The notes below the pieces were generated by a model. The model made no database searches and was not told where the DNA came from. It was given only the letters and a program-made list of their open reading frames with translations. A stretch of 64,000 bases of DNA from a virus, in the IMG/VR virus record IMGVR_UViG_3300050343_000214, positions 1-64,000 of that record, one strand, 5' to 3'. Shown here one piece after another: positions 6,424 through 38,200 of the stretch; position 1 is the first letter of the stretch; every line of letters begins with the position of its first letter. The position numbers and the translations under genes are program-made.

Positions 6424-6453
6424 ATTACAGCATTTACAACGGAAAGGTCAGAC

Positions 6454-6978: not shown

Positions 6979-6991
6979 AGGAGAATAGAAA

Positions 6992-7936: not shown

Positions 7937-7953
7937 TAAATTAAGAGGGAATC

Positions 7954-10900: not shown

Positions 10901-11223
10901 CTATAGGAAACTCTAAGATGTCAAATACAACAACTACAGCTCCTCCTTCATCGTTTACAAATTCACTTACAGCAGCTGCAAACGGACAAGCTACTGATAC
11001 GACAAATGGCGTAACCTTCTTAGCCCCTGAAGGTGCTAAGTTAGACTACAATATTCCTTCTACAGTAGAAGATCTTGCTCTAAATACTAACGTCTTCATT
11101 GAAGGCAGCTACGTGTTTACCTTTACAGCCACCGCTGCTTTTGCGGGACAAGTTATTAGGTACACGCCAGTTTCTGGATCTCCTGTAATAGTTACTCTCG
11201 CAAACGGAAGGGTTGATGCATGA
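7954..11223 (+). CDS. Modular fibre/adhesin A: anchor, cupredoxin-like domain, Thr-rich linker, RCC1 propeller, C-terminal module
   Basis: N-terminal ADRVKET..GTG...EVG.G phage fibre anchor. About 7 RCC1 repeats (WG.N..GQLG...AG..H..AI). Poly-Thr tracts. Confidence 0.75.
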   Translation: MSDNLIIIADRVKETSLTVGTGDLALGGVVGGFSAFSDVYASGDALFYAVTDGTNYEVGSGIFHYDQPTSLNSLQRFPTRSSLANNGLVDFPQSTKEVYVTYPATHSVYIGSGVADLNFPQASGLAFWSSSNILNYDNDIVWDSDNHRLGILSPNPSYGIEVGGNGFESSVQASGFYVGSSGVVFPAQNNGDATYAGGNQLLHFEKNQTNSETGSDLVIELSGVVDQVILLKQQNKGTVFAGPASGCPGDCDPNYPEFRYLTLEDIPDLSSVYSSFSDLQAASGAVNTDSIARSGNLQSQIDDNLTSVNSDVSTVSGALTADVNAVKNTFDVVKSGGEYEFSNVGTSTDLNPNIFLQKGLTYYFNIDSAGTPFYVKTAPVVNTDDVFDDGVTGNGITSGTLTFVVPQDAPDILYYTASNISTASGIIYTADINLTSENLYDNLTSSDSQASDKIAIWDSSASEYKNISLESLLFAPSGNSYIKRETIASSSAVGDLGEITFDDTYAYFKTSTEWKRIKMLPFQTTTTTTTTSTTTTTTYPPSCTTLAPDCGNQTWRTITGVDVNGCPEYSSCATTTTTTAAPTTTTTTTTTTLSPSDYSNFIYTWGYNGNNQLGYRTSELFSLSPTKLDIGNVSELSAGDFHVLAIDIYGDLYSWGWNINGQVGDGTKVDAPVPVEIGSGKDWSSVAAGDHHSAAIDSTGALYTWGANNLGQLGNGNRATVLTPTRIAANVTWSKVFCGTAHTLAISSIGELYAWGSNEYGQVGNGTFTDVLTPTKVGVENNWTTVSAYMHTLALNSEGQCFAWGRNDAGQLGLHRLEGTSPLFENQNSPQQISKRDTGGNVILNAGTVDNWKAVAAGYQHSLAINNAGELYVCGNNEFRQIGRAGITQTIVPGVGTNPATTTITQEPVHTFTRLGLERNWNKVAAGNFHSIIISAAGDMYAMGRNNYGQLGDGTTDNKDVLTLISTDFDWDFPQAGYDFTTAIGNSKMSNTTTTAPPSSFTNSLTAAANGQATDTTNGVTFLAPEGAKLDYNIPSTVEDLALNTNVFIEGSYVFTFTATAAFAGQVIRYTPVSGSPVIVTLANGRVDA

Positions 11224-17659: not shown

Positions 17660-20600
17660 GTGCAAATTACTCAAAGATCTCAATTAATTACTTATAATGA
17701 ATCTTCAGATAGTCTTATTAATAGTCTAGCTGGGTATGCCAATGTAGATAAGATCATAACCTTTTTATCGAATGGTCAATCATCTATTTGGAGAAGCGGC
17801 GCTGGTTTGAACGGTTTTTATAGTTTAGTGTCAGCTGAAGGATATTTGATTATATCTAAGTCTTCAGTAACTCTTCCTTATGAGCTTTATCCGTCTGATG
17901 ACGATATTCCAGATAGCGTGATAATTGATCAAAAGTTTCAAATTGCTACATATTGCGGCCCCGACTTTGATCTTGTTAACAATCAGTTTACCACCGCCCC
18001 ACCAACAACAACACCCGCTCCAACAACAGCCCCACCAACAACAACCGCTGCTCCTTCGTCGTGGAGTCAGGTTGGAAGCACTATAAGCAGAGCCAATACT
18101 AGCTTTGCTGTTAGTGTAGACATGACTGAAAGTTATGGCAATAGACGTATTATAGTTGGTGAACGTTATTACAGCGCTTCAGCTGGGGGCGATAACGGTC
18201 GGGTACGAATATATAAAATTAATAGCGACTCAGTAGATGAGCTTAAAACTTTTGATGGCGGTCAAAGTCAGTTTATAGGAGAGAATGTTGCTATATCTGA
18301 AGATGGGTCGAGTGCAGTTTGGGCTATGGGTGGTAATGAATCTTTTAGAAACCTGACAATTGTAGAAAATTTATTTAATAGCAGCGAAAGCACAACTATT
18401 GTTAACAATGTAGTTGACCAATCCAGTACTAACATCATGCTAGACAACGGCATCAATTTGCCCGGAAAAAGATTGTCATACAGAAATGGTAGAGTTATAT
18501 TTGGCGATCCACGAGATAACTCAACCCGAGGCAGTGTCAAGTTATTATCAAAGTCTCAAGGTCAGTGGGGATCGACAAGTGTTGATCCACCTAATGCTGA
18601 TGCTTCAGCTAATAGAAGTCCTTCTGATGTGTTTGGCGCTAACGTCTCTCAAATGACGGGTGGGTTTATTGTATCAGCTCCCAACGCTGACTTCTTAACC
18701 AACTCAACTAACTTTGAAGGCTTTGATGCTGGCGCTGCATACGCCTACGACTACAATCTAAGTACTGTTAGAATTATTGATGACGACAATGAATTAAATG
18801 ATAATTTTGGTAAAATCAATGATTCCAAGGGAGAGTTTGCGGTACTCGGTGGAAACACAGAGATAAGATGCTATAGAGATCTTAGGGGTGCTGCGGCATC
18901 TTCACAGCTGCAAACATATCATCGCGTTAGAGAAATAATAACACTAAATAGCATAAGAAGTCTAGATTCTGATATTTTGGGCAGCGACTCTATTTCATTT
19001 GCAGATGCTTGCATAAGCTCTACTGGGGAAACGTTGGGGGTCTTGGTTTTCAATTCTTCTCAGCGAAGACTTACTGGGTACATATATAAAGCATCTGGTG
19101 GTAGTAGAAACCCTTATGATAATAGCGCCACATGGACTTTTGATAGAAAAATTTATGATCAAGATCAAATTGAGTATAATGAACCTGCTTTTAATATCAA
19201 GTGTGATGGTAGCGGTGCGTATGTAGTCATCTCCGCTGGCGAAGCTGCGATCAGCTCTCCAGATGATAAAACTGGATACCTTTATGTTTATAGAGATAGT
19301 TCTTTCGAGCCTGAAATTAGAATTAGGCGAAAAGCTAGCGATGGATCTACTAGCACATCGTATTACGAAAGTGCGAACTCTCACATTTACGCCAAAGTTT
19401 CAAAAGTAACTAACGACACAACACTTACTTTTGCAGGTGCTATAGCAACTACTGGTGGAGCCGTTACGTACCAGTGGCAGAAGAGAAATACGTCAGGCTC
19501 TTGGTATAACATTGATGGTGCTAATGGTGCAACACTAACGCCAGACTCTTCGTATAGTAACAATAACTCTCTTTACAGAGTACAGCTGACTGCCAACAAT
19601 TGTGAGCCTACTTTTAGTGATATAATTAGGCTGGAACTAAATCCTCTCTACTTGGTTGGCACAAGTATTACGGATTCTCTTTCTTCTGCTAATATACTCA
19701 CCGGGGCTGTTCAGCTAAGTTTAACTGGGGCTGACGGGACTAGAGCTTTGAAGAGAACTACGAACCGCAATCTTGTTCATGCTAACACTAATGCTACTTC
19801 CAATAATGCTTCGTCTCCTCATAGAATTTTAACACAAGCTATGTCTTTGGAGATAGATGAAACCATTTTGCATGAAGATTATAAAAATATCGTCACCAAG
19901 CCATACCTTAGCGTTCCGTTGGTTGATAACATAGATGCCTCCGTAGAGTGTCCTCGACGAGTTACGAATGGTTCTCAGTTGGTAGATAGCCTTGAGTATA
20001 ACTATGCTTTATCTGTCAAGGTTGATAATTCTAGTATGGGCGATGAACATTTCTTAGTTCAAAGTCAAATTTCTCCACCAAGATTACCTTTTTTCCAACT
20101 AGTAGCAGGAGCGGATACTGGAGGCGAAGGTTTTTCTAAATCAGCTACTGAGCGGTCTAATTCAGAGTTCTATGTTCTTACTAAGCCTTCTCACAATAAT
20201 AATGCAGGTAAAGTTGCTATCAGTCAGATGTTGGCATTGCAACAGCACCGTTTACATGGCACTGTAGGAAATATTCCCGCAGCTGTAGCCGCCTGTAATG
20301 TAAATACTGCTACTGTTTACTTACCCGGTGGTGAACCATATATTGGAACATATAATGGTGTACAAAATCAAGGCAATGCAACTACCGTTAATAAACAGAT
20401 AAAAGTAAATAACTCTACTCAACCTTTTAATAGTTACGGCGCATTTCCAATTACGTCTGAAGACGCGCTAGGCTATACTGTAAGCTTTAACTTGACAAGT
20501 GAAAATGCAGACTTCTCCAGTGACCTTACAGCTGCATATGAAAATTTACATTCTAATAATGCTTTCAGACAAGTTCATACTTTAGTTTCTAATAATAGTC

Positions 20601-23193
20601 AAGACGTTTTTGGTAAAAGTGTTGCATTCTGTAACATGGGTAAGGTATTAGCTATTGGAGCGCCAAGGGTAGACGCAACTGCAAGTGTAATTAAGAATAC
20701 ATATATATTTGAATCAGATTATAACTCTTATGGTGACATTAATTTCCATGCTTCAACAAAGATGCAATCAGATGATCCTCATTTTGGAAAATATGTTTCT
20801 TGTTTGACTGTTGGTTCTAGAAGCTACGTCGCTGTAGCTGGAAACTCAGAGCTACGAATTGCTATTAAAGACTATTCTCTGTTTGGTAACAATGCTTGGA
20901 ACACTGTTGTCTCTGACCTAAACGGCTATGGCTCACACAGGCATTGATCTCACTCTTGCTGGAGAGTTTGATAGCTTGTTTGGAACTTCATCTGGCGATG
21001 CTAATAATGAAAATTTAAAAGTTTATTTGTACGGGACAGACAAGCAGGGGGCGTACCAGATGTTTTGATATCACTAGCTTTAAGAGCGCTGGAAGTTCAA
21101 GCCTAGCCTCCGAAAACGTGGTTGGAGATGTAATTCCTGCAAAGCCTTATGGCGCTGGCGCTGGAAGTACAGTAAAAGCATCTACCTACTATGATCACAT
21201 AAACAATAAATTTGTAAATAGAATTATACGAACCGCAGTGTCTAATACCACTTCTGTTTACTTTGAAGATTCTAACAATCCTTCTTTGGGAGCAAAGAAT
21301 GGTCTAGTTTCTGTGTACGATTTTGATAGCGTTCAAAACAAGTGGGTCCAATATCTGCCAGACATCTCTGACTCTAGCCTTACTGCTGACAAGCAGTTTG
21401 GTACAAATAATGGTAGAAATCTTGGCAGATCCGTCGCGCATCATTATCATACATCTAGAGTGTCCGATCAAACCACAGATGATTTTGTTCGCTACAGTAT
21501 TCTCGCTACTTCCTTAAATTCAGATACATCTGGAATAAGCGCTATGCGTAGAGTCACAGACAAATTAGTTACTACGACCCCAGCGCCCACCACGACTCCA
21601 GCGCCGACTACTATCCCGCCAGAACCTTCTGCGGACATACCTAGATATACTAATACGGCTGGTATGGTCCCTGTAAACTATGCTTCTGACAACATTGGCC
21701 CTCCTGTTTACGATAATAATATTTCTTCTTCAGAAACTCCTAACGATTTAATGCACTTGCCATTATCTTCTATTGTTACATCTGAGGATGGTTACACATC
21801 TGTCATGTGGGACGATAGGTCTAACTATGTAAATATTGATGACAGGAGGACGTATATACTCACTGGATTTCCGAACATTACAGAATATGAGCCAGCTAAT
21901 ATCCAATCTTCTATAGATCCTATTTCTGATGAGTATGAAGTACATACTGAACTGACGGTTGATAGTAACCATAAGAGGAGGGTAGTTGATTGCGCTGTTT
22001 CTGATGGCGGTGAACACATTGCAGTCACTATAGCTCAAACTCCTGCTGGTAAGTCTGCTGGCTTGGAAAAATCTTATGTTTTACTTTATCAAAGAAATCA
22101 AGAAAAACTTGGGGATGGAGCTGATACAGCTCAATTATTAAACAAATTTGTTTATTCTTTACTTAAAACTGCCACACAGTCTATAAACAATTCTTTAGAC
22201 ACAAGTGGGCAAAATCAATCTAATTACATAGATGGTGTAGATTTTAGTGAATACTCATTAGGATACAAAGATGCTCCTACTCCCGGTGAAACAAACCTTA
22301 ACTATCAGAACCGAAGACACAACAGACATAAAGTGATTTGTGTGCTTGTATCTAAACCTTTAAATGATTCTTCTGGGAATTCCTCTACAGCTATGTCTGC
22401 TTACTTGTTTGGCCTTAAGCTTGCTAATCAAGCTTTGACATATCGTGTTCCGGCGGGCTTGGTGGATGGTAAGGATGACGCACAGCAGCTTTATAAGGTT
22501 GACATTCCATATAATAGACTCATGGATGAATCTCTGTTTATAAATGGATCAAGTAGAAACGATTTCATTAGAACTGCTCGCCAACAATCTATGCATATAC
22601 CTAGAATTGTAGATAGGTATTTTGTTAAGAATGATGATGGTGATAGATATGCTCCAGATGATCGAATGTCTGCTGTGGCAGCGCCAACTGGTTACGATGC
22701 TATGGATACGGTCTCAAATGTCATTGGTGATTATACTCATCAAAAATACGACATATATATTTACAGGCTTAATAGGTCTCAACCCGGAACTAACGTTTTT
22801 AATACTCATCACTACGATGTGTTGTCTTGTATAGTTTCTATGAATCAATATGACACAAAGATTCGTACTTATAATACTAATTCTGATACTAGCTTTAAAT
22901 TTAATGGCTCTTCAGTGAATTTTCGTATAAGTCAGACAAATCAGACTGATCAAAACGAAAGCCACCAGTGGAGAACAGGAAAGGTCTCAAGAACTGGCTT
23001 CCTTCCTATTAGCGCAATAGATCAAGAGTATACTGGTAGAAGTGGTCTAACTAGATCAGACTTTGGTGGAGAATCAGACCCTTCAACACCAACTGTTCCT
23101 AATAACAATACTACTGATGCTCCTACTGCAACTACCACCACTGCATACGTAGCGCCGGACAACAACAACAATAATAATGGAGGAGGATATTAA
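17660..23193 (+). CDS. Modular adhesin D (~1840 aa; ORFs 17660..20947 and 21118..23193 joined): N-module plus orphan half-module, FG-GAP-like propellers, Ig-like domain
   Basis: GTG start with SD AAAGGA. Two extra bases (~20920 CTAAACG, ~21065 ATGTTTTGAT) restore ...DLTAMAHTGIDLTLAGEF...YQMFDITSFKSAG... Ig motif VTYQWQK...LYRV. Confidence 0.65.
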
Positions 23194-26100
23194 TGCCTAC
23201 GCCAAAAAGCAATTTGATCAAAATAGTTAAGCTATCCGAGAATGCTTCTATACTTGAGCAGAAAAGCACTATTGCTACAGATAGGGGACATCAGTATAAC
23301 ATGCATGTTTCTAATGATGGCGCTAGACTTTTAACCCAAGATGCTCCCCAATCTCTTCAAGACCAAGGCGCTAGTGATTGGAGCGGTGGAGGATTTAACG
23401 ATTGGTATAATAAATTAAATTCAACGTCTTGGGATCAACCAAAATCTGATTTGCGAGAGTTTTATAATACTACTCAGAACGTTTATGGATATGCTGCTAT
23501 AGATAATACCAAACAAGTTTTCGCTGAACAAGTAGTTAATTCACATTCTAATTCTACAATTGATATAAGCAACAGCGCCATTACTTGTCTTGACAAATCA
23601 GACCCTGTTGTTTCTACTCCGGTTATTAGACTAGGGCCACTAAGCACTTCGGACCAATTAAGCGATGTACATGGTTTTATGCATCGTGAACCACTTAAGT
23701 CAGGCAGCGATTATGAGTCGGCATTTGAGCATGTGTACAACTATTCCTCTGTTACTGACGCGCAGTTAGATAGATGGCGCTTACACGTACCTGCTGTGGG
23801 TGGCGGCGCCGTAAGAAGTCAATTTGACCGCTCTTCAGGTTTGGTTATAGAAGAAGGATCATCTACAATCGGCTTAGAAGAACATGAAACAGCATTTGAC
23901 TTTTCAGAAGAACGGCTAGGTTCAAGATCAACTCAATCATTACCAAGCGATCTCATGGTTCTTCACAATTATCATTTAAAATCTGATAGAGATTCTGTTA
24001 GCACCCCCACCGCCACCGATACGGCTGGACGCATCCATTTGCCAGATTTTGAAGAAAATACCAACAAGACAGGGTATGACGATGGCGCTGCGATGCTTGG
24101 AGAATTCTCAATAGCACGAAGTCGATACTGCGATCCTGCATCCAACGGCGGGAATACATTTTTAGATTTTTCTGTTAGCCTTCGACTACAGAGTGTTACT
24201 CAGTCCGCAGGAGTACCTGCCATGAGAGACATATACTGTTATAGCACTCCGTTTTCAACCTTTGGATATGGGTTCTATGAATTTCCAAACTCGCCCACGA
24301 ACAATTATGTCACCACCCATGATATGAAATTTTCTAAAATACAACCTGCGTACATGAGATTTGGAGGGATATCCCTAAGATCTTCTACTGGTGATATTAA
24401 TAAAATGGATCAAGTAGTTTTAAAATCTAATGAATGTATATCATTAGCTGGTTCTAGTGTTGGCACTAATGGCCTTTCTTATAATAATTCTGATGTTGCA
24501 GATATAGTTATATCAATTCCAGAAATGTCAACAGAAAAATGGTATTTCCTTCACGTATTTTCTGATGTAGAAAAACTTACCGTTGCTATAGACGGAGAAG
24601 TTGTTGCCACTAGAGAGCATGAAACTTCCTTAACTTCACAACATATCTATACTGTTGGCGATTCTGCAAGTGCGGCAAAGTACTCTAAAGATCCCAACGC
24701 ATACCGACCATACATAAACTACAGTAATACGCGGGCTAATGTTATGGGACTAACACCTAGTCATGGCTGTCCTCCTGTTGCAGCTGGTAGATCCCTTTTT
24801 GCTAAATATCCCATTCAAAATGATTACAATACTTACGACGTTACTACCCATCAGTTAGTAATTTTTACCACCAGTGCAACACCTAGATTTATTTATAACG
24901 AGCGTCCCGACGAAATATTTCTTATGAAAAATTTAGCTCCACACTTGTCGGACCCTAATAAGATAAGTACGAGTTTGTTGAGTGCCATAGGGAATATTAT
25001 TCCTCACTTTAAAACACTAACACCTGCAACACTTGGTCTTTCCTTGCGGTTTTCGACTAATTCTACTGCGGCGTCTGCTATGAACATCTGGACCGGACGA
25101 GACAGCATGGTTCTCAACAAATCTGAAGCTTGGTTGCTACATGCTGATCATGATTCTATAACGGACTACCTATCTTGGGATCAACCATCATACGCCTTTG
25201 GCAGGTCCAATACATCAGAAAAGATGCTAGAACATGATCCGGGTAAAGCTGGTATAAATTCTCTCTTGTCTGTTTATTCGTCTAGCTGGAACGGATTGTT
25301 AAACTATAATGATTCACACAACGCAACCTATGGTTCTTCACGACATTATATACATTCAACGGTTGATATTAGTACAAACACCACCACCAGCCGAATGCGT
25401 CAAGATTCTAGCGAGCAAATGCTGTACGGCATATCTCCAACTCATTTAATAATAGCTCCAAATAGAAGGTATGGTCAAGCTGTTATAATGTCTAATGAAA
25501 AAAACCAAACTGTTTTCTATACTCCTTTTTGTGGACACATGCATTCTTTTAGTTTATCAAGATTAGATGGTCGAAAGATTATTAACAGTAAGGAGTTCGC
25601 TAAAGCTAAACATGCACATTTCTCTAAGATGAATGATACAAGAAAAAAGAACAACAGTTTCTTTGCTACTGATTCAGAAAATTTAAAAGATCGAGTGAAT
25701 TTATATGGAAGCACTAAGCCAACGCAGGAAGGTCTTTGGCCTACAACCGACAGCAGCTTTTCTAGCACTACCGCTATAGAAGATTATGTAAATACTGGAT
25801 CTGATCTTTCTAGTAACCAAGCATTCCATGTTGGAGAAGCGCCAATAGTGGGTGATAGAAGCAGAACCCAATTCAATAAACACAACTCCCTATCAGATGG
25901 CAATGTTAGATATTACACAGAGCAATATGTTTCGACAGACTATAATAGTGATTTGAATGATTTAATAGTTGCTCCTTTTTCAGACTACAAAACGGCTACT
26001 ACAGATAACATTGTTACTCAAGGCGTGAGACATGATGTGTTTTTTAATTACAAGAAAACCGCCCTTTCTTCTATGTACAGTGTTGGCGTTGTTGGGGCAG

Positions 26101-26231
26101 ATAATTTTGGTCAAGCAGGAGTTGGTTCCTCAGAACACGCTCTTGGGGATACTGGAATATATAATTCTGTAACGTCTGTTGGCAAAAACAATTATGGACA
26201 GCTGGGTGACGGTTCTACAAGCACAACTTAA
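23193..26231 (+). CDS. Adhesin E (1012 aa) with LamG/ConA-like segment and C-terminal RCC1 half-repeats
   Basis: SD GGAGG with TAATG coupling. KWYFLHVFSD..LTVAIDGEVV (LamG-like). Ends GADNFGQAG...GKNNYGQLGDG. Confidence 0.65.
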   Translation: MPTPKSNLIKIVKLSENASILEQKSTIATDRGHQYNMHVSNDGARLLTQDAPQSLQDQGASDWSGGGFNDWYNKLNSTSWDQPKSDLREFYNTTQNVYGYAAIDNTKQVFAEQVVNSHSNSTIDISNSAITCLDKSDPVVSTPVIRLGPLSTSDQLSDVHGFMHREPLKSGSDYESAFEHVYNYSSVTDAQLDRWRLHVPAVGGGAVRSQFDRSSGLVIEEGSSTIGLEEHETAFDFSEERLGSRSTQSLPSDLMVLHNYHLKSDRDSVSTPTATDTAGRIHLPDFEENTNKTGYDDGAAMLGEFSIARSRYCDPASNGGNTFLDFSVSLRLQSVTQSAGVPAMRDIYCYSTPFSTFGYGFYEFPNSPTNNYVTTHDMKFSKIQPAYMRFGGISLRSSTGDINKMDQVVLKSNECISLAGSSVGTNGLSYNNSDVADIVISIPEMSTEKWYFLHVFSDVEKLTVAIDGEVVATREHETSLTSQHIYTVGDSASAAKYSKDPNAYRPYINYSNTRANVMGLTPSHGCPPVAAGRSLFAKYPIQNDYNTYDVTTHQLVIFTTSATPRFIYNERPDEIFLMKNLAPHLSDPNKISTSLLSAIGNIIPHFKTLTPATLGLSLRFSTNSTAASAMNIWTGRDSMVLNKSEAWLLHADHDSITDYLSWDQPSYAFGRSNTSEKMLEHDPGKAGINSLLSVYSSSWNGLLNYNDSHNATYGSSRHYIHSTVDISTNTTTSRMRQDSSEQMLYGISPTHLIIAPNRRYGQAVIMSNEKNQTVFYTPFCGHMHSFSLSRLDGRKIINSKEFAKAKHAHFSKMNDTRKKNNSFFATDSENLKDRVNLYGSTKPTQEGLWPTTDSSFSSTTAIEDYVNTGSDLSSNQAFHVGEAPIVGDRSRTQFNKHNSLSDGNVRYYTEQYVSTDYNSDLNDLIVAPFSDYKTATTDNIVTQGVRHDVFFNYKKTALSSMYSVGVVGADNFGQAGVGSSEHALGDTGIYNSVTSVGKNNYGQLGDGSTSTT

Positions 26232-26257
26232 TATAAGAATTTAACAAGGAGTTAGAA

Positions 26258-27736
26258 ATGTCTTTAAAAAATGCACTACTTCCAGATAGCGTTGTCGATG
26301 CAGCGTGTGGTAATGATCACTCTTTAGCTGTAACATCTGGTGGCGAATTATATTCTTGGGGTAACAATGGCTTTGGTCAACTAGGTCATGGAGATCGGAC
26401 TCATAGATCAAGCCCTACTAGGGTTGGTTCAAGAACAGATTGGGTCAGAGTTTTTGCTGGTACAAATCATTCTGTAGCTCAAACCTCTGATGGAAAGTTT
26501 TATGGGTTTGGATTAAATGTATCGAAACAACTTGGGGAAGGTCTCAGTACGACAGCTCAATATGTACAGACCCCAGAACTTTTGCTTTCAGAGCCTACCA
26601 ATTTGTCGAGTACAGAAGCTAGTGATTTGCAGACAATGAGGGGAAATATTAACAGTCTCAGCACTAATGTTTTTTGTGGTCCTAATTGCACTATTTTTAT
26701 TACTTCCAGCACTGTATTTTGCAACGCTCTGTACCTCAGTGCTTCGTATAAAAACAACAACGTCTTCTTGTTGGGAGCTAATCCATCTTTTCTTAATAAA
26801 GTTGTTCAATACAGCTTACCACGCGGCATTGGCGCAATACCAGATGGAACTACTGATTATTCTATAAGTGATAACGGAATTTTATTAAATAGATACAATA
26901 TGTTAGCAATGAACGGTATGGTTAGGTTATGGTCAGATCAATCTTGGAGTGGATACAATAATTATTATAAGAGCAGCTCCCTTGCAAACCTTGGTTATAA
27001 TGCTAAGTTGAGTGAGAGATGGTCTTATACATTTGCCTTTGCTAATCATTTTGTTACAAGAGATTTAAGTTACGGTGGAGAAGCGTTTTACGCCAACATG
27101 GCTGACTTCATGGTTGGGACAAACGCGAATTCGGCTAGCAGTCTTACCATAAGTAGAAATTTATTCACTCATGAAAAATCTTCAGATTATACATACGCCG
27201 CTCAAGATGCTTCCGTAAGTTTAGATGATCATACTGTTTTTGCAATAAGTTCTAATAACGATTTGTTGGCTTCAGTAGCACCAAGAAGATTCATATCTTA
27301 TTCAAATTCATATTTCGACACCTACACTAATTATAATTACATCTCCCAATTGGGAGAGGCTCCATCGGGACCAGACAACACGGGGAGCTATCGCATTAGC
27401 CTTATAAACGATGGGGGCAAAAGTAATCCATATTATGTAAGCAATAATCGCCCTGAGAGTTCACCCCTTTTCAATTCTTCTGGAGGAGGCATGGATGGAA
27501 CTGGAGACCTTCAGCCTTATGGCAATGTGAAGTGTAGCACAGTTTTCAACGGTAGAGATAGAATATATGCATTGGATAATAACGGTATTCTTCTTTCTGC
27601 TGGCAAGGATGATAATTATCTTTTAGGTAGAGATGTTTCTACGTCTACTCCAGCTAATGAGCTACACCCTACAGCTATTCGTAATGTAAAAAGAGTCGTA
27701 TCGGGTCGTCACCATTCCCTTTTCCTACAGAACTAA
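26258..27736 (+). CDS. RCC1-repeat beta-propeller protein F (starts mid-blade)
   Basis: SD AAGGAG. VVDAACGNDHSLAV..GELYSWGNNGFGQLG. Ends VSGRHHSLFL. Confidence 0.75.
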   Translation: MSLKNALLPDSVVDAACGNDHSLAVTSGGELYSWGNNGFGQLGHGDRTHRSSPTRVGSRTDWVRVFAGTNHSVAQTSDGKFYGFGLNVSKQLGEGLSTTAQYVQTPELLLSEPTNLSSTEASDLQTMRGNINSLSTNVFCGPNCTIFITSSTVFCNALYLSASYKNNNVFLLGANPSFLNKVVQYSLPRGIGAIPDGTTDYSISDNGILLNRYNMLAMNGMVRLWSDQSWSGYNNYYKSSSLANLGYNAKLSERWSYTFAFANHFVTRDLSYGGEAFYANMADFMVGTNANSASSLTISRNLFTHEKSSDYTYAAQDASVSLDDHTVFAISSNNDLLASVAPRRFISYSNSYFDTYTNYNYISQLGEAPSGPDNTGSYRISLINDGGKSNPYYVSNNRPESSPLFNSSGGGMDGTGDLQPYGNVKCSTVFNGRDRIYALDNNGILLSAGKDDNYLLGRDVSTSTPANELHPTAIRNVKRVVSGRHHSLFLQN

Positions 27737-27739
27737 AAT

Positions 27740-29962
27740 ATGTTTCCAGAACGTTTTGATAAAATAATACAGTTTTTGCCTAATGGTCAATCTGTGACTT
27801 ACGTTAAGGGCGCTGGTCTTCAGGGAATTACTTACTTGAGGAACGGAGAAACGTATGTCTTTATTAGTGCTAATGATGATGACCACATTGTTTGTGATGG
27901 GGTTGTGGCTACAACGACGACTACTACTACGTCAACTACGACCACAACAACTACAACTACAACTACAACAGCCGCTCCTACCACTTCACTTTCTTTCAGA
28001 AATATTGTAGGCGATAACGGTTGCAATGGTTCGCTTAGTGAATTTCCTAAATGTATTCCTTGTTCACCCACAAGCATTAGCCATGTTGTTAAAACTAAAG
28101 AAGAAGATGGCGTTATTACATTTAAAGTCTCTGTCGGCGTAACTAATCCTAATACTAGTCAACTTCAGTATATATGGGAGTATAAATCCTATACCACAGA
28201 ATGTTCCAGTGGTGATTGGACCCGCTTTGGCACTTCAAATTCCAGCGCCAATCAATACGGAGTTACGTCTGTACCCACTGTAGACTTTAATTATGACTGT
28301 ATTATTGGTCAGTCCTTGAGGATAGAAGTAAGATGTACTGCTCTTATGGGTTGGGAAAACACTCGTACCATTTCAAATAGTTACTATTACAAATGCGATA
28401 ACGAGCTAGATACATCTGAACTTGTTAATAAGTTTGATTTATTAATTAGTACACCAGAAAACGCATCAGAATCTTTCCCCACAGGCTTTACGACAATTAG
28501 TAGAGGTTTTGTGTTAAGCGATAGTAAGGAATACGACTATGATACTGAACAATGTGAATATGATGACTATGTTGAAGGCGGTTATTTACTCTTAAACCAA
28601 CCATCTGACATGTTAGGAGATCGTAATCTTCTTCAATTACCGTTTTCTGAATCAACTAAAGAAGCTATAAAACAAATAGGTCAAGTCGAATGGCTTATAA
28701 GAAGACCCACCGATACGCCTCTTGCAAGTGATAGCGCATCTACTCTAAAAACATTACCAAACAACCAGAGATCGTTCCAAACCTTATCGTCTACTACAGC
28801 GCTCAATAATGATAACGATCCGACTACTTTAAATTTGGCATCTATTAATTTTCCTAGTTTGTATACAGGTTATTACGAAATAGTGGCTAAAGTTCGACTT
28901 GGCACTGAAACGTGCTACTCCAAAATTGTTCCAGTTTTTCTCAATAATTATCTCAGTTCACGGATAAGTATGTATGACACAAGCCGTCCTGATTTAATTT
29001 CTTTAGGTTATCACGGTCATCAAAAACATTGCGCTTACACGGGGAATTATCCTACTGTCGGCGCGCCTAGTATAACAGCAGACGTTGCTATTATTAATGG
29101 TACGGCACCCAGCGCTGGTTTGCCAAGTAGTGATACACAAAATGTTTATGTAGCATCAAGAATAGGAGACAGGAGTTATGGCGCTTTGGAGCATCTATTT
29201 CCTATAAGCTCAGTTTATGTTGACGGAAATTATGTTACGAGAAAAAATTTGAAAGTTGTGTATAACCAAAAAAATAATTCTTTGTCGTATAATAATTCGT
29301 ATTTTATACATGAGGTGTCGGATTCGGAAAATACGAATGTGCTTGCATCTGTTCAGTCGTTAGTAACTTCAGTCTGGGGATTTTATGATCCTCAAAATCC
29401 TATCTGTGCGTTTGGAAGATATTACCCTCACCCTACGATAAGACCTTGGAATTATGGTGTTTTAGCTCCACTTAAACGTGGCTCTTACTATAGTTCCAGC
29501 GGGTACGGTTCTTATCCGGCACAGATATCTGACTTAACTGGTGGTAACACCTTAAAAATAAATTTAAGAACAGCGTTCACTTACAATGACGACGATAAAC
29601 CAGAAGCTCACGATTTAGTTGTTGTTCCACACATGCAGTATAGTAATGATGGGGGTGGTACTTGGAGAAATGCCGGGGGTCTGCAATCGGTTGTCAAGAA
29701 AAACAATAAATTTTGGCAGGCAACTTTTCGTAATCCTTATTCTTATGGTGCTAGTTATTGGGATATTTTTGGATGGCGTAGTGGCACTCTGATCCGTTAC
29801 ACCCCCGTAGGTTATGCAGGAGTTCTCGGAGGATCTTATGATAAAGATATATACAACGCTGGTGGCTATCCGGGTCTTGCGATTAGGCAGTTAACAGATC
29901 CATCTATTCCTATTAATTCTAGGGTTCATTCTGTATTTTCACAGCCATTTTCTTTACCATAG
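27740..29962 (+). CDS. Adhesin G: truncated N-module, poly-Thr linker, Cys-containing Ig-like domains
   Basis: N-terminus FDKIIQFLPNGQS..GAGLQG..L..GETY is homologous to the N-module. LQYIWEY...IEVRC Ig-like pattern. No clear SD; starts 3 nt after the in-frame TAA of 26258. Confidence 0.65.
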   Translation: MFPERFDKIIQFLPNGQSVTYVKGAGLQGITYLRNGETYVFISANDDDHIVCDGVVATTTTTTTSTTTTTTTTTTTTAAPTTSLSFRNIVGDNGCNGSLSEFPKCIPCSPTSISHVVKTKEEDGVITFKVSVGVTNPNTSQLQYIWEYKSYTTECSSGDWTRFGTSNSSANQYGVTSVPTVDFNYDCIIGQSLRIEVRCTALMGWENTRTISNSYYYKCDNELDTSELVNKFDLLISTPENASESFPTGFTTISRGFVLSDSKEYDYDTEQCEYDDYVEGGYLLLNQPSDMLGDRNLLQLPFSESTKEAIKQIGQVEWLIRRPTDTPLASDSASTLKTLPNNQRSFQTLSSTTALNNDNDPTTLNLASINFPSLYTGYYEIVAKVRLGTETCYSKIVPVFLNNYLSSRISMYDTSRPDLISLGYHGHQKHCAYTGNYPTVGAPSITADVAIINGTAPSAGLPSSDTQNVYVASRIGDRSYGALEHLFPISSVYVDGNYVTRKNLKVVYNQKNNSLSYNNSYFIHEVSDSENTNVLASVQSLVTSVWGFYDPQNPICAFGRYYPHPTIRPWNYGVLAPLKRGSYYSSSGYGSYPAQISDLTGGNTLKINLRTAFTYNDDDKPEAHDLVVVPHMQYSNDGGGTWRNAGGLQSVVKKNNKFWQATFRNPYSYGASYWDIFGWRSGTLIRYTPVGYAGVLGGSYDKDIYNAGGYPGLAIRQLTDPSIPINSRVHSVFSQPFSLP

Positions 29963-32134: not shown

Positions 32135-33078
32135 ATGGCTAATAAACGTATTTTTTATGCACTCCAGCAAGTGTTAATAGGCGACGGAGAAGCGAGTGAA
32201 ACATCAACCGCGCTAAAGGGTGTACAAAGTGTTGGAATGAGTTCCACCACAAATGTAGAGAGTTTTAGTGCTTTTGGTGGCATTGAGGCAACTACAATTC
32301 TGCAAGACCTAGATCTTGAAATAACTATTGAGAATGGTCTTGGTAGCGATTGGACGAACGCCCTTGGAGCTGCTGGCTATAGCTCGTTCAATAGTGCGTT
32401 TTTTGACACGAAAAGAACGATTACTTTAGAATATCTTACAGATAGTGGCACTCCGAACGTGACTAAATTAATCACACTGGAAGCTATTTTGACTTCATAC
32501 AGTGTTCAGATGGGTCTTGATGGTGCAGCTACAGAATCTATTACTTTCCAAAATGCTGGCACCTCAGTCTTTACTGCGGGTTCTGACGGTACAGCGCTGT
32601 CAGCTCAAGCAGGCAAAAAACTTTGTAATGTAATTACTCGACCTAACTTTACTAATTTTACATATACTGAATACCCGGAATGCTGTGAAGCAACCACTAT
32701 AGCCCCCGCAACCTATAGTAAAGTTCAATCATTTAGTGCCAATTTTGATGTTGGAAGCGAAAAGGTTTCAGCTCTTGGGCAGTCTATGCCATTTGGCAAA
32801 TTTGCTACCTTCCCAGCTGAAATTTCGGCAGAAGTAGAATACCATCTTGATCCAACTGGTGGTATTGGTACTCTTAATTCTGGAACTATTACTGGCAATA
32901 GCTTGGATGATGTGTGTTATGATGTAGAAATTGCTATGCCCGGAAATACATATGCGATGGATAAAATGAGGCTCGCAGGAGCTAGCCGAAGCGGAGGTGA
33001 TGTTGGCGGTGGAAACGTAACTATTTCAGAAAGTTATACTGGATTTAATACGTTTAGCCTACTACTGGCCCTTCTTAA
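32135..33078 (+). CDS. Major tail tube protein (true stop probably TAA 33076-33078; base missing near 33060)
   Basis: SD GGGAG. NKRIFYA, GVQSVGM, YSVQM..DG..TESITF and a duplicated VQSFS module. The ORF-track tail MRTDEEEH... belongs to the next gene. Confidence 0.65.
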
Positions 33079-33085
33079 TTGTTAC

Positions 33086-34028
33086 ATGAGGACTGACGAA
33101 GAGGAACACTGGATACAGTCTATTAGAGTTGGCACTATTAAGTATGAAAATATTTCAATAGTGCCAGCTACTATAGATCAAGTGTCTGACGCTGCTAGAT
33201 GTCTATAGGACGATCTTACGATGAGTCTCTAAATAGTGGTATCATGACAGACTCAGGATTGGAACATTGGATGATAGAAAATTCTTTATTGCCGAAGTCG
33301 TTTCATACTTCTAGAGAAAATTTGAATAAATCTATAGACAATCTTAAAAAAAGATCTGTTCCGAAATAGGGCTAGCAAGTCTGCAATTAAAAAGATCCGT
33401 AGCGCAGATCTTACAAACACTCGCGCCAAGTTAAAAGATTGTACTTGCTCAAAAAATCCCACATGTCTCACAATACTTGTGAATTTATAGCGCAAACTGA
33501 AAAGTTAGTCTCTTTACTACACGCTACAACTTTCAAAAATAACAAGCCTTATAAGCCAGCTAATATGAATGTTGTCATTGAAATATGGCAAGAGTCTTTA
33601 GCTTCTGAATCCTTTGATCAGATCTTTAGTCTAGATGTGATACTTGGAGGTCTATTTGGGCTAACAAGGGGTTTGGCTTTAAGTTGTTTAAAAAAAATAA
33701 CCCAGATGATGATTTAACTATCAATCAAAGAAACTTAATCACATGGTCCAGAGTGTACGACAATATACAAGAGTCAATAGATTGTCCATCAGACGCAGCG
33801 ATTGCTAACCATGACATGCTTGATGGGTGGTTTTTAATTCAACAAGCTAAGAGGGAAAAAGAAAGAATGGAGCAAGAGGCAGAAGCACTAACTGGCGATA
33901 GAGGTAAGTCTGCAAATGCTCAACATGTCTTCGTTCCTCAAGGCGCAGACAACATAGATATTAATATTTTAAATGAGGGCCACGAATCTAAGCCTATACA
34001 TAATATAATTGAGGATCATAATAAATGA
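33086..34028 (+). CDS. Probable tail assembly protein (several indels; reconstructed)
   Basis: ATG at 33086 (MRTDEEEHWIQSIRVG). Fragments continue ..HNTCEFIA.., ..TWRSIWANKG.., ..WSRVYDNIQES.DCP...DMLDGWF.. to TGA 34028. Confidence 0.5.
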
Positions 34029-34357
34029 ACAACTATAATAATAGAAGGAAAGAAATTCACGATGCTAAGTCTTATAATAGGCTTTCTAGAAACATGAAAA
34101 AGAAAATACAAACAACTATGATTGGCGCTCTTAGCAGTGTTGAGAAACATTTTAGTTTTTTATGGGAGCAAGAAAATATTTCTGAAGAACAAAGGGAGTC
34201 ATTAAAAAGAATATATGACGATCTTAGATCTGAAATATTAGACAAAGGAAATCATCAACTAAGGAATGTTGATGCTGAATTGTCAGACTATACTATATCA
34301 TTACACCCAAACGTTCATGATATAAATTTTTTCGTAGATAACAAAGAGGAGAATTAA
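34025..34357 (+). CDS. Hypothetical protein, possible tail chaperone (110 aa)
   Basis: ATGA overlap. Helical KKIQTTMIGAL..E..F..LW...R..ILD.GN. Confidence 0.55.
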   Translation: MNNYNNRRKEIHDAKSYNRLSRNMKKKIQTTMIGALSSVEKHFSFLWEQENISEEQRESLKRIYDDLRSEILDKGNHQLRNVDAELSDYTISLHPNVHDINFFVDNKEEN

Positions 34358-35230
34358 ATGAAAAAGGAACCTAAAAGGATACCAATTGAAGCTAAAGACG
34401 ACGATGATAACGTAGTCAAGGGTTACATTAGAAAGCCCGGAAGTAGCGTACTCGCTAGGGCGCAGAGGGTTCATGCTAAAGTGTGGACTGATTGCGTTAG
34501 GGATAAAATAATGACTAAGCAAGAGCTTCAAAACTTTATGTATGAAAATAATGTGTGGAATGCTGAAAAAGATCTTAAACAGCTCACCTTGAGTAATGAT
34601 ATCCAGCAGCTAGAGAAAAAACTGTATGTTGGTAATAAAGGGCAAAAGACGATGAAGGCGTCAGAGGCCAAACAAATTGCTATAGACATGCGAATTGCCA
34701 GAGCTAAACTGCGAGATTTGATTGCGGAGAAAATGGCCTTAGAGCAGAACACTGCTGAAGCCTTGGCAGATAATGCTAAATTTGACGTTTTAGTAGCAGG
34801 CTGCACATTCGACGAAAATGATAATCGTGTGTATAATAGTGTAGATGAATATTCCGAAAATGCTGATACTGGGTTTGCTTTTGCGGCAGCTACAGCTATG
34901 GCTGAATTGTTATATTCATTAGACAAAGACTTCGAGAAAACCTTGCCAGAAAACAAGTTCCTCTCTGATCAGGGGTATGTTAATGACGAGTTATCTCTAG
35001 TCAACAAAGACGGTGAAACCGTAGATACCGAGGGTAGAAGGATAAACGAATTTGGCTATTATGTTAATGACGCAGGAAAGAGGACAGATATCGAAGGTAA
35101 TCTATTGGATGAAGATGGTAATTATATCCCTTCAATACAATACGTAGAAGACGAAGAAGTGCCTAAAAAGAAGGTTGCTAAAAAGAAAGCAACTGCTAAG
35201 AAAAAGGCGGCTACTTCGTCCGATAGTTAA
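34358..35230 (+). CDS. Probable tail assembly chaperone (290 aa)
   Basis: SD GAGGAG. Directly upstream of the tape measure gene. DxxG hairpin repeats and Lys-rich tail. Confidence 0.5.
   Translation: MKKEPKRIPIEAKDDDDNVVKGYIRKPGSSVLARAQRVHAKVWTDCVRDKIMTKQELQNFMYENNVWNAEKDLKQLTLSNDIQQLEKKLYVGNKGQKTMKASEAKQIAIDMRIARAKLRDLIAEKMALEQNTAEALADNAKFDVLVAGCTFDENDNRVYNSVDEYSENADTGFAFAAATAMAELLYSLDKDFEKTLPENKFLSDQGYVNDELSLVNKDGETVDTEGRRINEFGYYVNDAGKRTDIEGNLLDEDGNYIPSIQYVEDEEVPKKKVAKKKATAKKKAATSSDS
34829..34844 (+). promoter_or_regulatory. Putative intragenic late promoter upstream of the tape measure gene
   Basis: GTGTATAATAGTGTAG. The 15-mer at 34828-34842 is identical to 53109-53123. Confidence 0.5.
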
Positions 35231-35247
35231 TAGCCAAGGACGTTATC

Positions 35248-38200
35248 GTGTCTAAATTCGTTTTAACTGCTCAACTACAATTAAAAGCTCCCAATAATGT
35301 ATCCCAAGTTGTTTCTCAAATGCAGAAGCAGCTTTCGGGTGTCTCTGTAAATTTGAATGCGCAGGGAGCTGTTAAGGCTAATCAACAAGTACAGCAACTA
35401 TCTTCAAATCTTAATCAAGCTTCCAAGTCAGCTAAAGGGCTTGGCAGCGACTTTGCTCAGTCTGTACGTAGATTCTCTGCAATGGCAATCGCCACAAGAG
35501 CTGTTAGTCTCTTTACAAATACTCTTAGTAGCGCAATCAAAGAATCTATAGCCTTTGAACGAGAGTTAGTTAAAATTTCTCAGGTCACAGGGCAAACAGT
35601 TCAGAATTTATCTTTTCTAACTAATACTGTTTCTAGTTTATCTACTAATTTGGGTGTTGCTTCTGGCTCGCTCTTGAGCGTTAGTAGGATGCTATCTCAG
35701 GCTGGTCTCTCAGCCAAAGAAACAGAAACTGCCCTGCGTACCTTGGCTATGACTGACCTTGCTCCAACGTTTGATAATATCGCTCAAACCGCTGAAGGCG
35801 CTATTGCTATCTTTAACCAGTTTGGCAAAGGAGCTGCGGCTCTAGAACAACAACTTGGCGCTGTCAATGCTGTCGCTGGTCAGTTTGCTGTAGAGTCTGG
35901 TGACTTGATTGCTGCTGTTCGTAGAACTGGTGGTGTATTTAGAGCTGCTGGTGGTGATCTCAATGAATTAATCGCTTTGTTTACTAGTGTAAGATCTACT
36001 ACGCGAGAAAGTGCCGAAAGTATTTCTACTGGTCTTCGTACTATCTTTACTAGAATTCAAAGACCAAAAACCATTGAGTTCATGAAAAAGTTTGGCGTTG
36101 AACTTACAGACATGGAAGGAAAATTTGTTGGACCGTTTGAGGCCGTTAAAAGACTGAGCGCTGCGTTAGCTGGTCTTGAACAGGGTGATACTAGATTTAT
36201 CAAGATTGCTGAAGAGTTGGGTGGATTTAGACAGATTGGTAAAGTCATTCCTTTGATTCAACAATTTTCTACAGCTCAGTCTGCTTTGAATGTAGCCCAA
36301 GCTGGTGGCAATTCTTTAGCCAAAGATGCTGCCACTGCACAGCAAGCATTGGCGGTACAGATTATAAAAGTTAAAGAACAATTTTTGGAGTTAATAAGAG
36401 GCGTAACTGCTACTCCAATATTCCAGATGATGGCTACGAGCGCATTGACTTTAGCCTCTGCTCTAATCAAAGTCGCTGATACCTTAAAACCTATTCTCCC
36501 TATTATAACAGCGATTGCCGCTGTTAAGTTCACCAAAGGTATTGCTGGCTTTATGGGTGGTCTTGCTGGCAATATGAAAGGATTTTCCCAAGGTGGCAAA
36601 GTTCATGCTTTTGCTAGAGGAGGAGTAGTTCCGGGTTCTGGTAATCGTGATACTGTACCCGCAATGCTCACCCCCGGCGAATTCGTAATACGTAAAAGTA
36701 GCGTTGCAAAGCTAGGAGCTGGTAATCTAGAGGGAATGAATAAGTATGCTGCTGGAGGGATGGTATCTCAAGACAGACATACATATGGACCAAAAGCTCC
36801 CCCTGCTATAAAAAGGATGAAAGTTGCCCCCAAGGTTTCTCCTGAAGAACAAAAAAGAATAAACGAAAAAGGTGCCGCAACAAGAGCAGAAAATGAAGCC
36901 AAGCGCAAACAAGGTGAAGAATTTGATGGCGAGACGACTAAAGATAATAGTGGCAAAAAATTACCAACTATTGGTTTAGCCGCTTTGCATGGAACTAATA
37001 AATTATATGACCAAGCTATTCCAAACATAGGCAAAAGGGTTAAGTTACAATTCAGTACTTTAGATCCCAAGCAGGCTAAAGGCTATGAGAGAGAGATGAG
37101 AGATTCGGTTGAGTCAGTAGCTGGCAAAATGGCTAGCGAGTTAGCTACTGATATACGAGATTCTACACCTATAAATCAATCTGAAATTGATGGAATGATG
37201 GACAAGGCTGGTTTTGCCAATGCTGTAGGTGCATTTTTTGAAAGCGCCCTAGCCCTTACCGGATCTCCATATGAAGGCGCTAAGGGTAAAATGCAGATCA
37301 ATGACTCTCTTGATTTTGCTTCTGGACTAGGAACAGCTGCTAAATCCTTTAAAGGATTAACTTCAAACATGCCCACAGACGCTACGCGAACAGCAGGATC
37401 TGAAGGTAAAAGCGCAAGTAAATTTGCCTCACAGGTTGGTAGATGGTTTGCTAAAAATCCAAACTATGATATAGATTTAGTTAAAAAAATGGCTGAAGGC
37501 GGCGGGGTTGGTTCTGATACTGTTCCAGCATTGCTTACTCCCGGTGAATTTGTTGTTAATAAAAGCTCTGCTCAAAAGATTGGGTATGGCTCTTTAAACC
37601 GCATGAACAAAGTTGGTAAGTACGCTAAGGGTGGCTTTGTTCAAAAATTTGCTGGTGGTAGTTCTGGAAGCGGTGTTAAGGGTGGTGGCGGTGGAATGAT
37701 GGGTGGGATGTTTGAAGGAATGACGGGTCAGTTGATGGGTGTTCAAATGGCTTTGTCGATGCTTACTCCAGCTATTGATGAAAATAGTGGAGCTTTTGCT
37801 AGGGGCGCAAATAGTTTGATGGGCGGGTTTAATTCGCTTATAGGCGTTGTCACTATGGCTCAAGTAGCTTTAGCTGCATTTGGTGTCAATTTACAAAAAC
37901 AAAATATTGGCTCCTTGCTTAAATCAATGTTTAAGACGGGGAGAGGCGGTTTAGGAGATATTATTGGTGGGGTACAAAAACGAAAAGTCGGTGGTAAATT
38001 ACGCGCCGTCAGAAGGAAAGGAGAGGGTTTCTCTGAGGCTTTTCAAAATGAAATTGGAGTTCAAAAAGAACGAGCTTCTATTAATAAAAAAATGAGAAAT
38101 GTAAGAAAATCTGCTCCACAAAAGAATTTTGTTGAATCACCTGCTGCACAACAACAAACTCAAATTAAGAGAAAAAGAAGGGCTGATAGTTTACGGAACT

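What the first reader, a model, noticed from the sequence alone, without database searches (positions are those of the whole stretch)
26068..27736. RCC1 propeller begun by one gene and closed by the next
Seen: protein 23193 ends with two RCC1 first-half motifs (SVGVVGADNFGQAG; SVTSVGKNNYGQLGDGSTSTT*). After a 26-bp AT-rich spacer with SD AAGGAG, protein 26258 starts with the second half of a repeat (VVDAACGNDHSLAV) and ends with the closing strands (VSGRHHSLFL). The frames differ and the RBS is strong, so this does not look like an indel. Known: RCC1 rings close by pairing N- and C-terminal half-blades. Inference: the tail of 23193 completes the ring of 26258 in trans and tethers it. The duplicated half-motif might dock a second partner.
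Basis: partly seen in the sequence, partly recalled or inferred. Interest (0 to 1): 0.75.

Follow-up and report, generated by a model that had tools for sequence, protein, structure and literature searches.

The report
Split RCC1 propeller joining two phage proteins
In an uncultured phage, the outer "closing" strand of a seven-bladed RCC1-type propeller sits at the end of one virion gene and the rest of the propeller in the next gene; diverged relatives keep this split, so the two proteins probably lock together through it, but no complex could be modelled.

Summary
Gene 23193-26231 (g1, 1012 aa) ends in an RCC1 first-half motif. After a stop and a 26-nt spacer with AAGGAG, gene 26258-27736 (g2, 492 aa) starts with the second half of a repeat.

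- **Not an artefact.** All three frames carry stops in the spacer. A metagenome contig with about 90% DNA identity has the same spacer. Three g1 relatives (92-71% identity, about 1000 aa) end in the same ...GKNNYGQLGDGSTSTT. Six g2 relatives (92-67%, 492-500 aa) start MSLKN. No fused form was found.
- **Register.** g1's last 22 residues fill columns 2-23 of a 48-column RCC1 repeat profile, and g2's first 25 fill columns 24-48.
- **Control.** About 25 other viral RCC1 proteins start strand-D-first and end strand-C-last. g2 starts one strand late, and g1 has no propeller of its own.
- **Structure.** A moderate AlphaFold model of g2 overlays whole RCC1, UVR8 and RPGR rings (Z 21-26) but leaves the closing D strand unmatched.

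Best reading (about 50%): an old, conserved gene fission in which g1's tail donates the closing strand in trans and tethers g2. This scan noted a similar 6+1 RCC1 split in another phage genome.

The parts
23193..26231 (+). g1: 1012-aa virion (fibre-like) protein with no Pfam or PHROG family apart from its RCC1-like tail
   Evidence: ORF. Pfam and PHROGs are empty apart from a sub-threshold RCC1 hit at 995-1010. Orthologues P0121, P0122 and P0123 are 998-1000 aa and share the same C-terminus.
26076..26135 (+). Weak upstream RCC1-like first-half motif (g1 residues ~962-981, ...VGADNFGQAGVG)
   Evidence: Marginal in hmmsearch (E 0.08; 0.015 in P0123) and not found by hhalign. The G-x-x-F-G-Q-x-G pattern is kept in P0123.
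26163..26228 (+). g1 tail (residues 991-1012): RCC1 strand D plus the GQLG loop, the proposed donated 'velcro' strand
   Evidence: Repeat HMM positions 4-23, 16.2 bits, E 6e-7. hhalign columns 2-23, 93%. The last 16 residues are identical in all four orthologues. Against L018 the last 90 codons show 4 synonymous and 2 nonsynonymous differences.
26229..26257 (+). g1 stop codon plus the 26-nt AT-rich spacer with SD AAGGAG (26246-26251); stops in all three frames
   Evidence: The spacer is identical in relative L018 (and no differences) and unique in the window.
26258..26332 (+). g2 residues 1-25: second half of an RCC1 repeat (strands A, B, C of blade 1)
   Evidence: hhalign places residues 1-25 at columns 24-48 (82%). 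HMM positions 35-49 match residues 11-25. UVR8's N-terminus aligns to g2 9-56.
26336..26704 (+). g2 residues 27-149: two further RCC1 repeats (the second carries an insertion)
   Evidence: Pfam RCC1 85 bits. HMM 72 bits for residues 27-74. hhalign matches 28-75 (99%) and 78-148 (67%). pLDDT is 86-95 over residues 11-90, falling to 63-70 towards residue 150.
26705..27577 (+). g2 residues ~150-440: variable middle with no detectable RCC1 repeats; probably degenerate blades 4-6 with insertions
   Evidence: No HMM or hhalign repeat is found here. pLDDT is 25-50 from residue 151 to about 420, with one 10-residue block at 55. This is the least conserved part of g2. Residues 100-400 show 36 nonsynonymous against 6 synonymous codon differences versus L018.
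27578..27736 (+). g2 residues 441-492: last RCC1 repeat (D6, loop, A7, B7, C7); the protein ends right after strand C with no closing D strand
   Evidence: HMM positions 1-47 match residues 441-488. The model's residue 492 aligns to RCC1 416 and UVR8 345, which is the end of the last C strand. The C-terminus is invariant in six orthologues.

Best explanation
g1 and g2 descend from one gene that was cut inside the first repeat of a seven-bladed RCC1-like propeller, in the loop just after the N-terminal closing strand. This origin is inferred with high confidence. The cut is old and has been maintained. Today g2 carries blades 1-6 plus strands A, B and C of blade 7. The last ~22 residues of g1 carry the missing outermost strand D of blade 7 and its GQLG loop. 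The proposed mechanism is inferred and was not shown here: after both proteins are made from the same message, g1's C-terminal strand pairs with strand C of g2's last blade. This finishes the blade and 'velcroes' the ring, and so fastens g2 non-covalently to the C-terminal end of g1. It resembles the donor-strand complementation that links pilus subunits. On this reading g1 is the proximal, shaft-like piece and g2 is an exchangeable distal propeller. The fast-evolving middle of g2 is then the likely ligand- or host-contact surface.
For: 1. Real boundary: stops lie in all three frames, with a strong SD and a single possible start codon.
2. Conserved split: L018 (about 90% DNA identity, an independent metagenome) has g1 of 998 aa, the identical spacer and g2 of 492 aa. 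P0121, P0122 and P0123 (92, 86 and 71% identity) all end ...GKNNYGQLGDGSTSTT. P0001-P0006 (92-67%) are all 492-500 aa and start MSLKN.
3. No fused form: none was found among proteins of 556-1771 aa (g1 query) or 862-2460 aa (g2 query).
4. Register: g1 991-1012 fills columns 2-23 and g2 1-25 fills columns 24-48 of the same repeat profile. No residue is lost or gained in the ungapped register.
5. Control: about 25 RCC1 proteins on eight unrelated viral or MAG contigs, and the window's own gene 7954-11223, have 7 repeats or multiples of 7. They start at HMM positions 2-5 and end at 39-49. Only g2 starts at position 35 at residue 11, and only g1 carries a lone half-repeat 1 residue from its stop.
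6. Structure: an AF2 model of g2 (46-sequence MSA, pTM 0.59) overlays complete RCC1-type rings (RPGR, UVR8, RCC1) with Z 21-26, 283-305 residues aligned and rmsd 3.1-3.9 A. The model ends at RCC1 416 and UVR8 345. RCC1's first ~22 chain residues and UVR8's last ~36 residues stay unmatched, and these hold the closing D strand.
7. Selection: against L018, g1 as a whole has 125 nonsynonymous and 30 synonymous codon differences, and the g2 middle has 36 and 6. In contrast g1's last 90 codons have 2 and 4, and g2's last 92 codons have 0 and 1. DNA identity across 25956-26480 is 97-99%.
Against: No complex was modelled or observed. The g2-only models are weak: mean pLDDT is 37 with 7 sequences and 52 with 46 sequences, and the second MSA, padded with generic RCC1 proteins, may have steered the ring shape. 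Residues 150-420 are unresolved, so the blade count of seven is not proven. Residues 3-8 of g2, the supposed strand A1, are coil in the model. The tail is conserved but not exceptionally so: 32% of 20-aa windows of g1 are at least as conserved against P0123. A propeller lacking one outer strand can be stable, so g2 may not need the tail. Adjacency of the genes is shown by DNA only for the window and L018.
Confidence: 0.5

Rival explanations
1. Fission or recombination scar without docking. The genes were once one, or a propeller module was swapped in at the GQLG motif. The g1 tail is now part of g1's own C-terminal fold, or it is kept for DNA-level reasons such as g2's translation-initiation region or a homology block for module exchange. 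g2 closes as a ring with a three-stranded last blade and binds the virion some other way.
For: The tail's conservation is ordinary for g1. The junction DNA is almost identical in L018, which fits recent shared ancestry or a recombination block as well as selection on the protein. The AF2 model already forms a ring without the tail. The stretch upstream of the tail (IVTQGVRHDVFF......SSEHALGDTG...) looks like further decayed RCC1 strands that could pack within g1 (weak evidence).
Against: A useless remnant should decay, yet the last 16 residues are identical at 71% overall identity and synonymous changes outnumber nonsynonymous ones there. g1 has no propeller of its own for the strand to close. 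Both ends of g2, which flank the missing strand, are its most conserved parts.
Confidence: 0.33
2. A single fused protein is made by recoding (frameshift, readthrough or ribosome hopping) across the spacer.
For: The register is continuous across the gap. Phages are known to use recoding in tail genes (general knowledge).
Against: Stops lie in all three frames within the 29 nt, two of them in g1's own frame. g2's frame is closed by a TAA at 26234-26236. No take-off and landing codon pair gives an open continuation (my reading). A strong SD plus ATG is conserved.
Confidence: 0.03
3. Assembly or sequencing artefact: one gene is broken by an indel in this record.
For: The same record does carry a probable double frameshift elsewhere (20947/21118).
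Against: The identical junction appears in an independent metagenome contig. The same protein ends appear in clusters from Logan, ENA and NCBI assemblies.
Confidence: 0.02
4. Ordinary domain ends. RCC1 domains normally begin and end with half repeats, so two independent genes merely look like a split blade.
For: UVR8-type propellers do start with a second half.
Against: g1 has no propeller that its half repeat could belong to. g2 both starts and ends with a second half, so it is one D strand short in either the RCC1 or the UVR8 register. None of about 25 control viral RCC1 proteins shows this pattern.
Confidence: 0.07

Closest known systems
Sec13-Sec16, Sec13-Sec31, Sec13-Nup145C and Seh1-Nup85 (eukaryotic COPII and nuclear-pore edge elements)
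   Same: An open beta-propeller is completed in trans by strands from a partner protein, and the shared blade is what holds the two proteins together (PMC2922654, read).
   Different: In those complexes the partner gives three strands of a seventh blade, and Sec13's own N-terminus gives the outer velcro strand. Here the partner would give only the outer velcro strand. The fold is RCC1-type, not WD40. The setting is a phage virion, and the two genes are adjacent products of a fission.
Donor-strand complementation in chaperone-usher pili (Fim, Pap)
   Same: A subunit whose beta fold lacks one edge strand is completed by a terminal extension of the neighbouring subunit, which builds a fibre (established knowledge, not tested here).
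   Different: Those folds are Ig-like and the donor is an N-terminal extension. Here the fold is a propeller blade and the donor is a C-terminal tail.
Single-chain RCC1-like domains (human RCC1 1A12, UVR8 4D9S, RPGR 4QAM, HERC RLDs)
   Same: g2 has canonical RCC1 repeats (Pfam 85 bits). Its model overlays these rings at Z 21-26.
   Different: Those proteins close the ring in cis, with one to three strands permuted between their own termini (general rule in PMC3797127). g2 lacks the closing strand, which lies in the upstream gene. About 290 aa of g2 are not recognisable as RCC1.
Docking of a secondary receptor-binding protein by a short conserved peptide in Klebsiella podophages (KP32-type branched RBPs)
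   Same: A short conserved terminal peptide of one fibre protein anchors it to another (abstract of PMC13352976).
   Different: In that system the peptide is on the secondary RBP and binds a branching domain. No shared propeller blade is involved.

Membership tests
RCC1-like repeat propeller (Pfam PF00415 / PF25390 RLD) | RCC1 repeats above the Pfam gathering score | tested here: met
   g2 scores 85.3 bits on PF00415 against a cut-off of 21.7, and 60.1 bits on RCC1_2. g1 alone does not pass (12.9 bits), so only g2 is a member by this test.
RCC1-like repeat propeller (Pfam PF00415 / PF25390 RLD) | Seven blades forming a closed ring | tested here: inconclusive
   Only four repeats are detectable by sequence. 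The AF2 model (pTM 0.59, middle pLDDT 25-50) overlays whole seven-bladed rings at Z 21-26, but its MSA was padded with generic RCC1 proteins.
RCC1-like repeat propeller (Pfam PF00415 / PF25390 RLD) | Ring closure in cis: the chain starts with strand D and ends with strand C (RCC1 register), or an equivalent permutation | tested here: not met
   g2 starts at repeat column 24 and ends at strand C, so one D strand is absent from the chain. The control proteins all start at HMM positions 2-5. The register is met only when g1's tail is counted in.
Trans-completed beta-propellers (Sec13 type) | Partner strands inserted into the open propeller, seen in a structure or a confident complex model | not testable with these tools
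   The structure tool folds single chains only.
Trans-completed beta-propellers (Sec13 type) | The incomplete propeller and the donor segment are both conserved across relatives | tested here: met
Phage tail-fibre or receptor-binding proteins | Homology to a known fibre or RBP family, or position in a tail-fibre module | tested here: inconclusive
   g1 has no PHROG hit, and g2 hits only 'RCC1' PHROGs. The genes lie in a run of large structural genes between a head protein (2620-3303) and the major tail and tape-measure genes (32135-39774). Neighbours hit tail-fibre, tail-spike and virion-protein PHROGs.

The most novel reading that the evidence does not exclude
A phage uses a split RCC1 propeller as a plug-and-socket joint. 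The C-terminal 22 residues of one virion protein are the velcro strand of the next gene's propeller, so a fast-evolving tip protein is clipped on by donor-strand completion of a blade. Together with the 6+1 RCC1 split that this scan noted in another phage, this would point to a recurrent, undescribed way of joining fibre proteins.
Probability: 0.45. Interest if true: 0.7.

Novelty: new variant of a known kind. Interest (0 to 1): 0.55.

Why it matters
How successive fibre proteins of large phages are joined is mostly unknown, and it limits rational swapping of host-range modules. A joint made by sharing one propeller blade would be a simple rule readable from sequence: an upstream tail carrying the closing strand, followed by a downstream propeller that is one strand short. 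Such a rule could be used to find partners in metagenomic phages. It would also extend trans-completed propellers, known from eukaryotic coat and pore proteins, to viruses and to the RCC1 fold. If docking does not occur, the locus is still a clean, dated example of gene fission inside a repeat domain.

Tried and rejected
- **AF2 of g2 with its 7 true homologues.** The result was unusable (mean pLDDT 37).
- **Phage GenBank records.** There was no DNA or protein match for g1, and only generic RCC1 hits for g2.
- **IMG/VR.** No relatives of g1 were found, only generic RCC1 loci for g2, and no other gene ends in the same tail.
- **GTDB genomes.** One unrelated RCC1 hit.
- **Exhaustive representative search.** It was swamped by giant multi-repeat proteins. 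Among the 150 hits listed, only one representative (P0006) is a full-length g2 relative.
- **ESM Atlas.** It returned only generic viral RCC1 clusters and holds no model of g2.
- **Self-comparison of g2 for hidden repeats.** It was confident only at the two ends.
- **The 144-aa (stop-to-stop) ORF in L009 ending in a partial repeat.** On reading, it is a chance resemblance.
- **g1's last 60 residues against PDB sequences.** The match was not significant (E 1.7), although the RPGR alignment reads as strand C, strand D and the GQLG loop.
- **Ribosome hopping or frameshifting.** Rejected from the stop-codon layout.
Full report
**What is there**

The window is the first 64 kb of a 105.8-kb IMG/VR virus record, estimated 68% complete, with 39.5% GC. 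The finding lies in a long run of same-strand genes for large structural proteins (3330-29962). This run sits between a head-protein gene (2620-3303) and the genes for a putative major tail protein (32135-33208) and the tape measure (35248-39774). Several neighbours hit tail-fibre, tail-spike or virion-protein PHROGs.

g1 is 23193-26231 (1012 aa). It has no Pfam or PHROG family apart from a sub-threshold RCC1 hit at residues 995-1010. g2 is 26258-27736 (492 aa). It scores 85 bits on Pfam RCC1, with the hits at its two ends.

Between the genes lie TAA and 26 nt of 23% GC, with AAGGAG 6 nt before the ATG. The frames differ by 2, and every frame carries a stop in this stretch. ATG 26258 is the only start codon after the in-frame TAA at 26234-26236.

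**Is the motif real?**

I built a repeat HMM from 800 RCC1 repeats taken from the homologues returned by the searches.
- g1 992-1011 matches HMM positions 4-23, which are strand D (G-x-v-y-x-w-G) plus the N-x-x-G-Q-L-G loop. The score is 16.2 bits, E 6e-7 for one sequence.
- hhalign of the g1 family profile gives 93% probability for residues 991-1012 against columns 2-23 of 48.

**Not an error, and old**

The search for homologous proteins returned six full-length g2 relatives (92-67% identity, 492-500 aa) and three g1 relatives (92, 86 and 71%, 998-1000 aa).
- Every g1 relative ends ...GKNNYGQLGDGSTSTT.
- Every g2 relative starts MSLKN..LPD.VVDAACG and ends VVSGR.HSLFLQN.
- No fused protein appeared among 556-1771-aa candidates for g1 or 862-2460-aa candidates for g2.

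One relative could be read as DNA. L018 (MDTC01055409.1) is collinear with the window at about 87-93% identity. It has g1 at 4473-7469, the identical 26-nt spacer, and g2 at 7496-8974. Its g1 product is exactly P0122.

**The register argument**

RCC1 blades have four strands, A to D, named from the inside out. In the usual sequence repeat the order is D, GQLG loop, A, B, C.
- hhalign places g2 residues 1-25 on columns 24-48 of the repeat profile (82%). g1's last 22 residues lie on columns 2-23.
- hmmsearch gives the same ungapped abutment: g1 T1012 at position 24 and g2 M1 at position 25.
- A MAFFT alignment with generic RCC1 proteins offers an alternative register a few residues off, with g2 P9 on the conserved Pro. 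The abutment is therefore exact to within about six residues.
- g2 then has a full repeat at 27-74, a repeat with an insertion at 77-149, about 290 aa with no detectable repeat, and a last repeat at 441-490. The protein stops right after strand C.

**Control for the 'ordinary ends' objection**

I tested that here.

In about 25 RCC1 proteins on eight unrelated viral or MAG contigs, and in this phage's own gene 7954-11223, the repeats number 7, 8, 21 or 35. The first repeat starts at HMM positions 2-5 in nearly all (one at 18), and in most the last reaches position 39-49, a few residues before the end of the protein or domain. Gene 7954-11223 shows this between two Thr-rich linkers: its domain begins ...FIYTWGYNGNNQLG and ends ...DFTTAI.

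Only g2 starts at position 35 at residue 11. Only g1 (in the window and in L018) carries a lone half repeat one residue from its stop. g1 has no propeller of its own. g2 both begins and ends with a second half, so it is one D strand short in any register.

**Structure**

AF2 on g2 with its seven true homologues failed (pLDDT 37). With 46 sequences, made up of the family plus 38 single-domain RCC1 proteins (alignment A4), the model reached pTM 0.59. pLDDT is 86-95 over residues 11-90, 63-70 up to residue 150 and over most of the last two blades, and 25-50 from residue 151 to about 420, with one block at 55.

The model overlays complete rings:
- RPGR: Z 26.0, 299 residues aligned, rmsd 3.2 A.
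- UVR8: Z 25.1, 284 residues aligned, rmsd 3.1 A.
- Human RCC1: Z 21.0-22.9, 290-294 residues aligned, rmsd 3.4-3.9 A.

Model residues 1-492 span RCC1 43-416. This leaves the first ~22 residues of that chain uncovered. From my knowledge of the RCC1 sequence, those residues hold the N-terminal closing strand GLVLTLG.

Model residues 9-492 span UVR8 14-345. By the alignment, this ends just after the last ...HTLAVT strand and before UVR8's final NVFAWG...GQLG strand and loop.

No strand follows C7 in the model. These results agree with the register argument. They are not independent proof, because the padded MSA could impose the ring, and the blade count in the middle remains open.

**Selection pattern**

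Against L018, most differences are nonsynonymous. g1 has 125 nonsynonymous against 30 synonymous codon differences, and g2 residues 100-400 have 36 against 6. This is typical of exposed, host-facing phage proteins. The junction is quiet by comparison: g1's last 90 codons have 2 nonsynonymous and 4 synonymous differences, g2's first 100 have 3 and 1, g2's last 92 have 0 and 1, and the spacer has none. DNA identity is 97-99% over 25956-26480, next to a 70% patch at 25806-25955.

Against the 67-71% clade, g2's two ends are its best-kept parts and the middle is the most variable. The g1 tail is well kept, with its last 16 residues identical. It is not an outlier, since 32% of 20-aa windows do as well.

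**Interpretation**

- **Shown:** a real, conserved two-gene arrangement; ends that abut in the repeat register; and a g2 that lacks one closing strand which g1 carries.
- **Inferred with high confidence (about 85%):** the pair arose by fission of one gene in the D-to-A loop of the first repeat.
- **Inferred with about 50% confidence:** the tail still docks as strand D of blade 7 and tethers g2 to g1's C-terminus.

The main rival (about 33%) is a scar that is kept for other reasons, with g2 closing as a ring that has a three-stranded last blade. Recoding into one protein is unlikely given the stops in all frames. An artefact is excluded by the independent assemblies.

The closest known mechanisms are the trans-completed Sec13 and Seh1 propellers (PMC2922654) and donor-strand complementation in pili. 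The general rule that propellers permute one to three strands between their termini for velcro closure is given in PMC3797127. Full-text searches found no paper describing a phage RCC1 propeller split between genes. That is weak evidence of absence. Within this scan, a 6+1 RCC1 split in another phage was noted and followed up (e1-5881241). I did not test that case.

**Limits**

The host and the position of these proteins on the virion (tail, neck or head fibres) are unknown.

Noticed in passing
window 20925-21125 (ORFs 17660-20947 and 21118-23193): These two window ORFs correspond to one continuous ORF in relative L018 (181-4473, 1430 aa). The window has two extra single bases, near 20932 and in a G run near 21047 (G5 against G4). 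Together they account for the +2 frame offset. This boundary is therefore a double frameshift, either an assembly error or a broken gene. It is not a designed split, unlike the g1/g2 boundary.
   Followed up: partly
window 27740-29962 vs L018 8978-12433: The gene after g2 is 740 aa in the window but 1151 aa in L018. About 1.2 kb present in L018 is missing between window 27916 and 27962, and the following ~1.5 kb is only patchily similar (77-86%). This is a mosaic, fast-changing fibre gene.
   Followed up: no
window 23193-27736: Between the window and L018, nonsynonymous codon differences far outnumber synonymous ones in g1 (125 against 30) and in the middle of g2 (36 against 6). This suggests diversifying selection or patchwise recombination in exposed parts.
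   Followed up: partly
window 7954-11223 (RCC1 domain about 9757-10905): A second virion gene carries a complete seven-repeat RCC1 propeller bounded by Thr-rich linkers. Its last repeat has GRNNYGQLGDG, nearly the same as g1's tail motif GKNNYGQLGDG.
   Followed up: partly
window 25929-26160 (g1 residues ~913-990): The conserved stretch before the tail (…IVAPFSDYKTATTDNIVTQGVRHDVFF…, …SSEHALGDTG…) reads like further decayed RCC1 strands (B, C, D, then C). It may be the remains of an extra blade. It is not statistically supported.
   Followed up: partly
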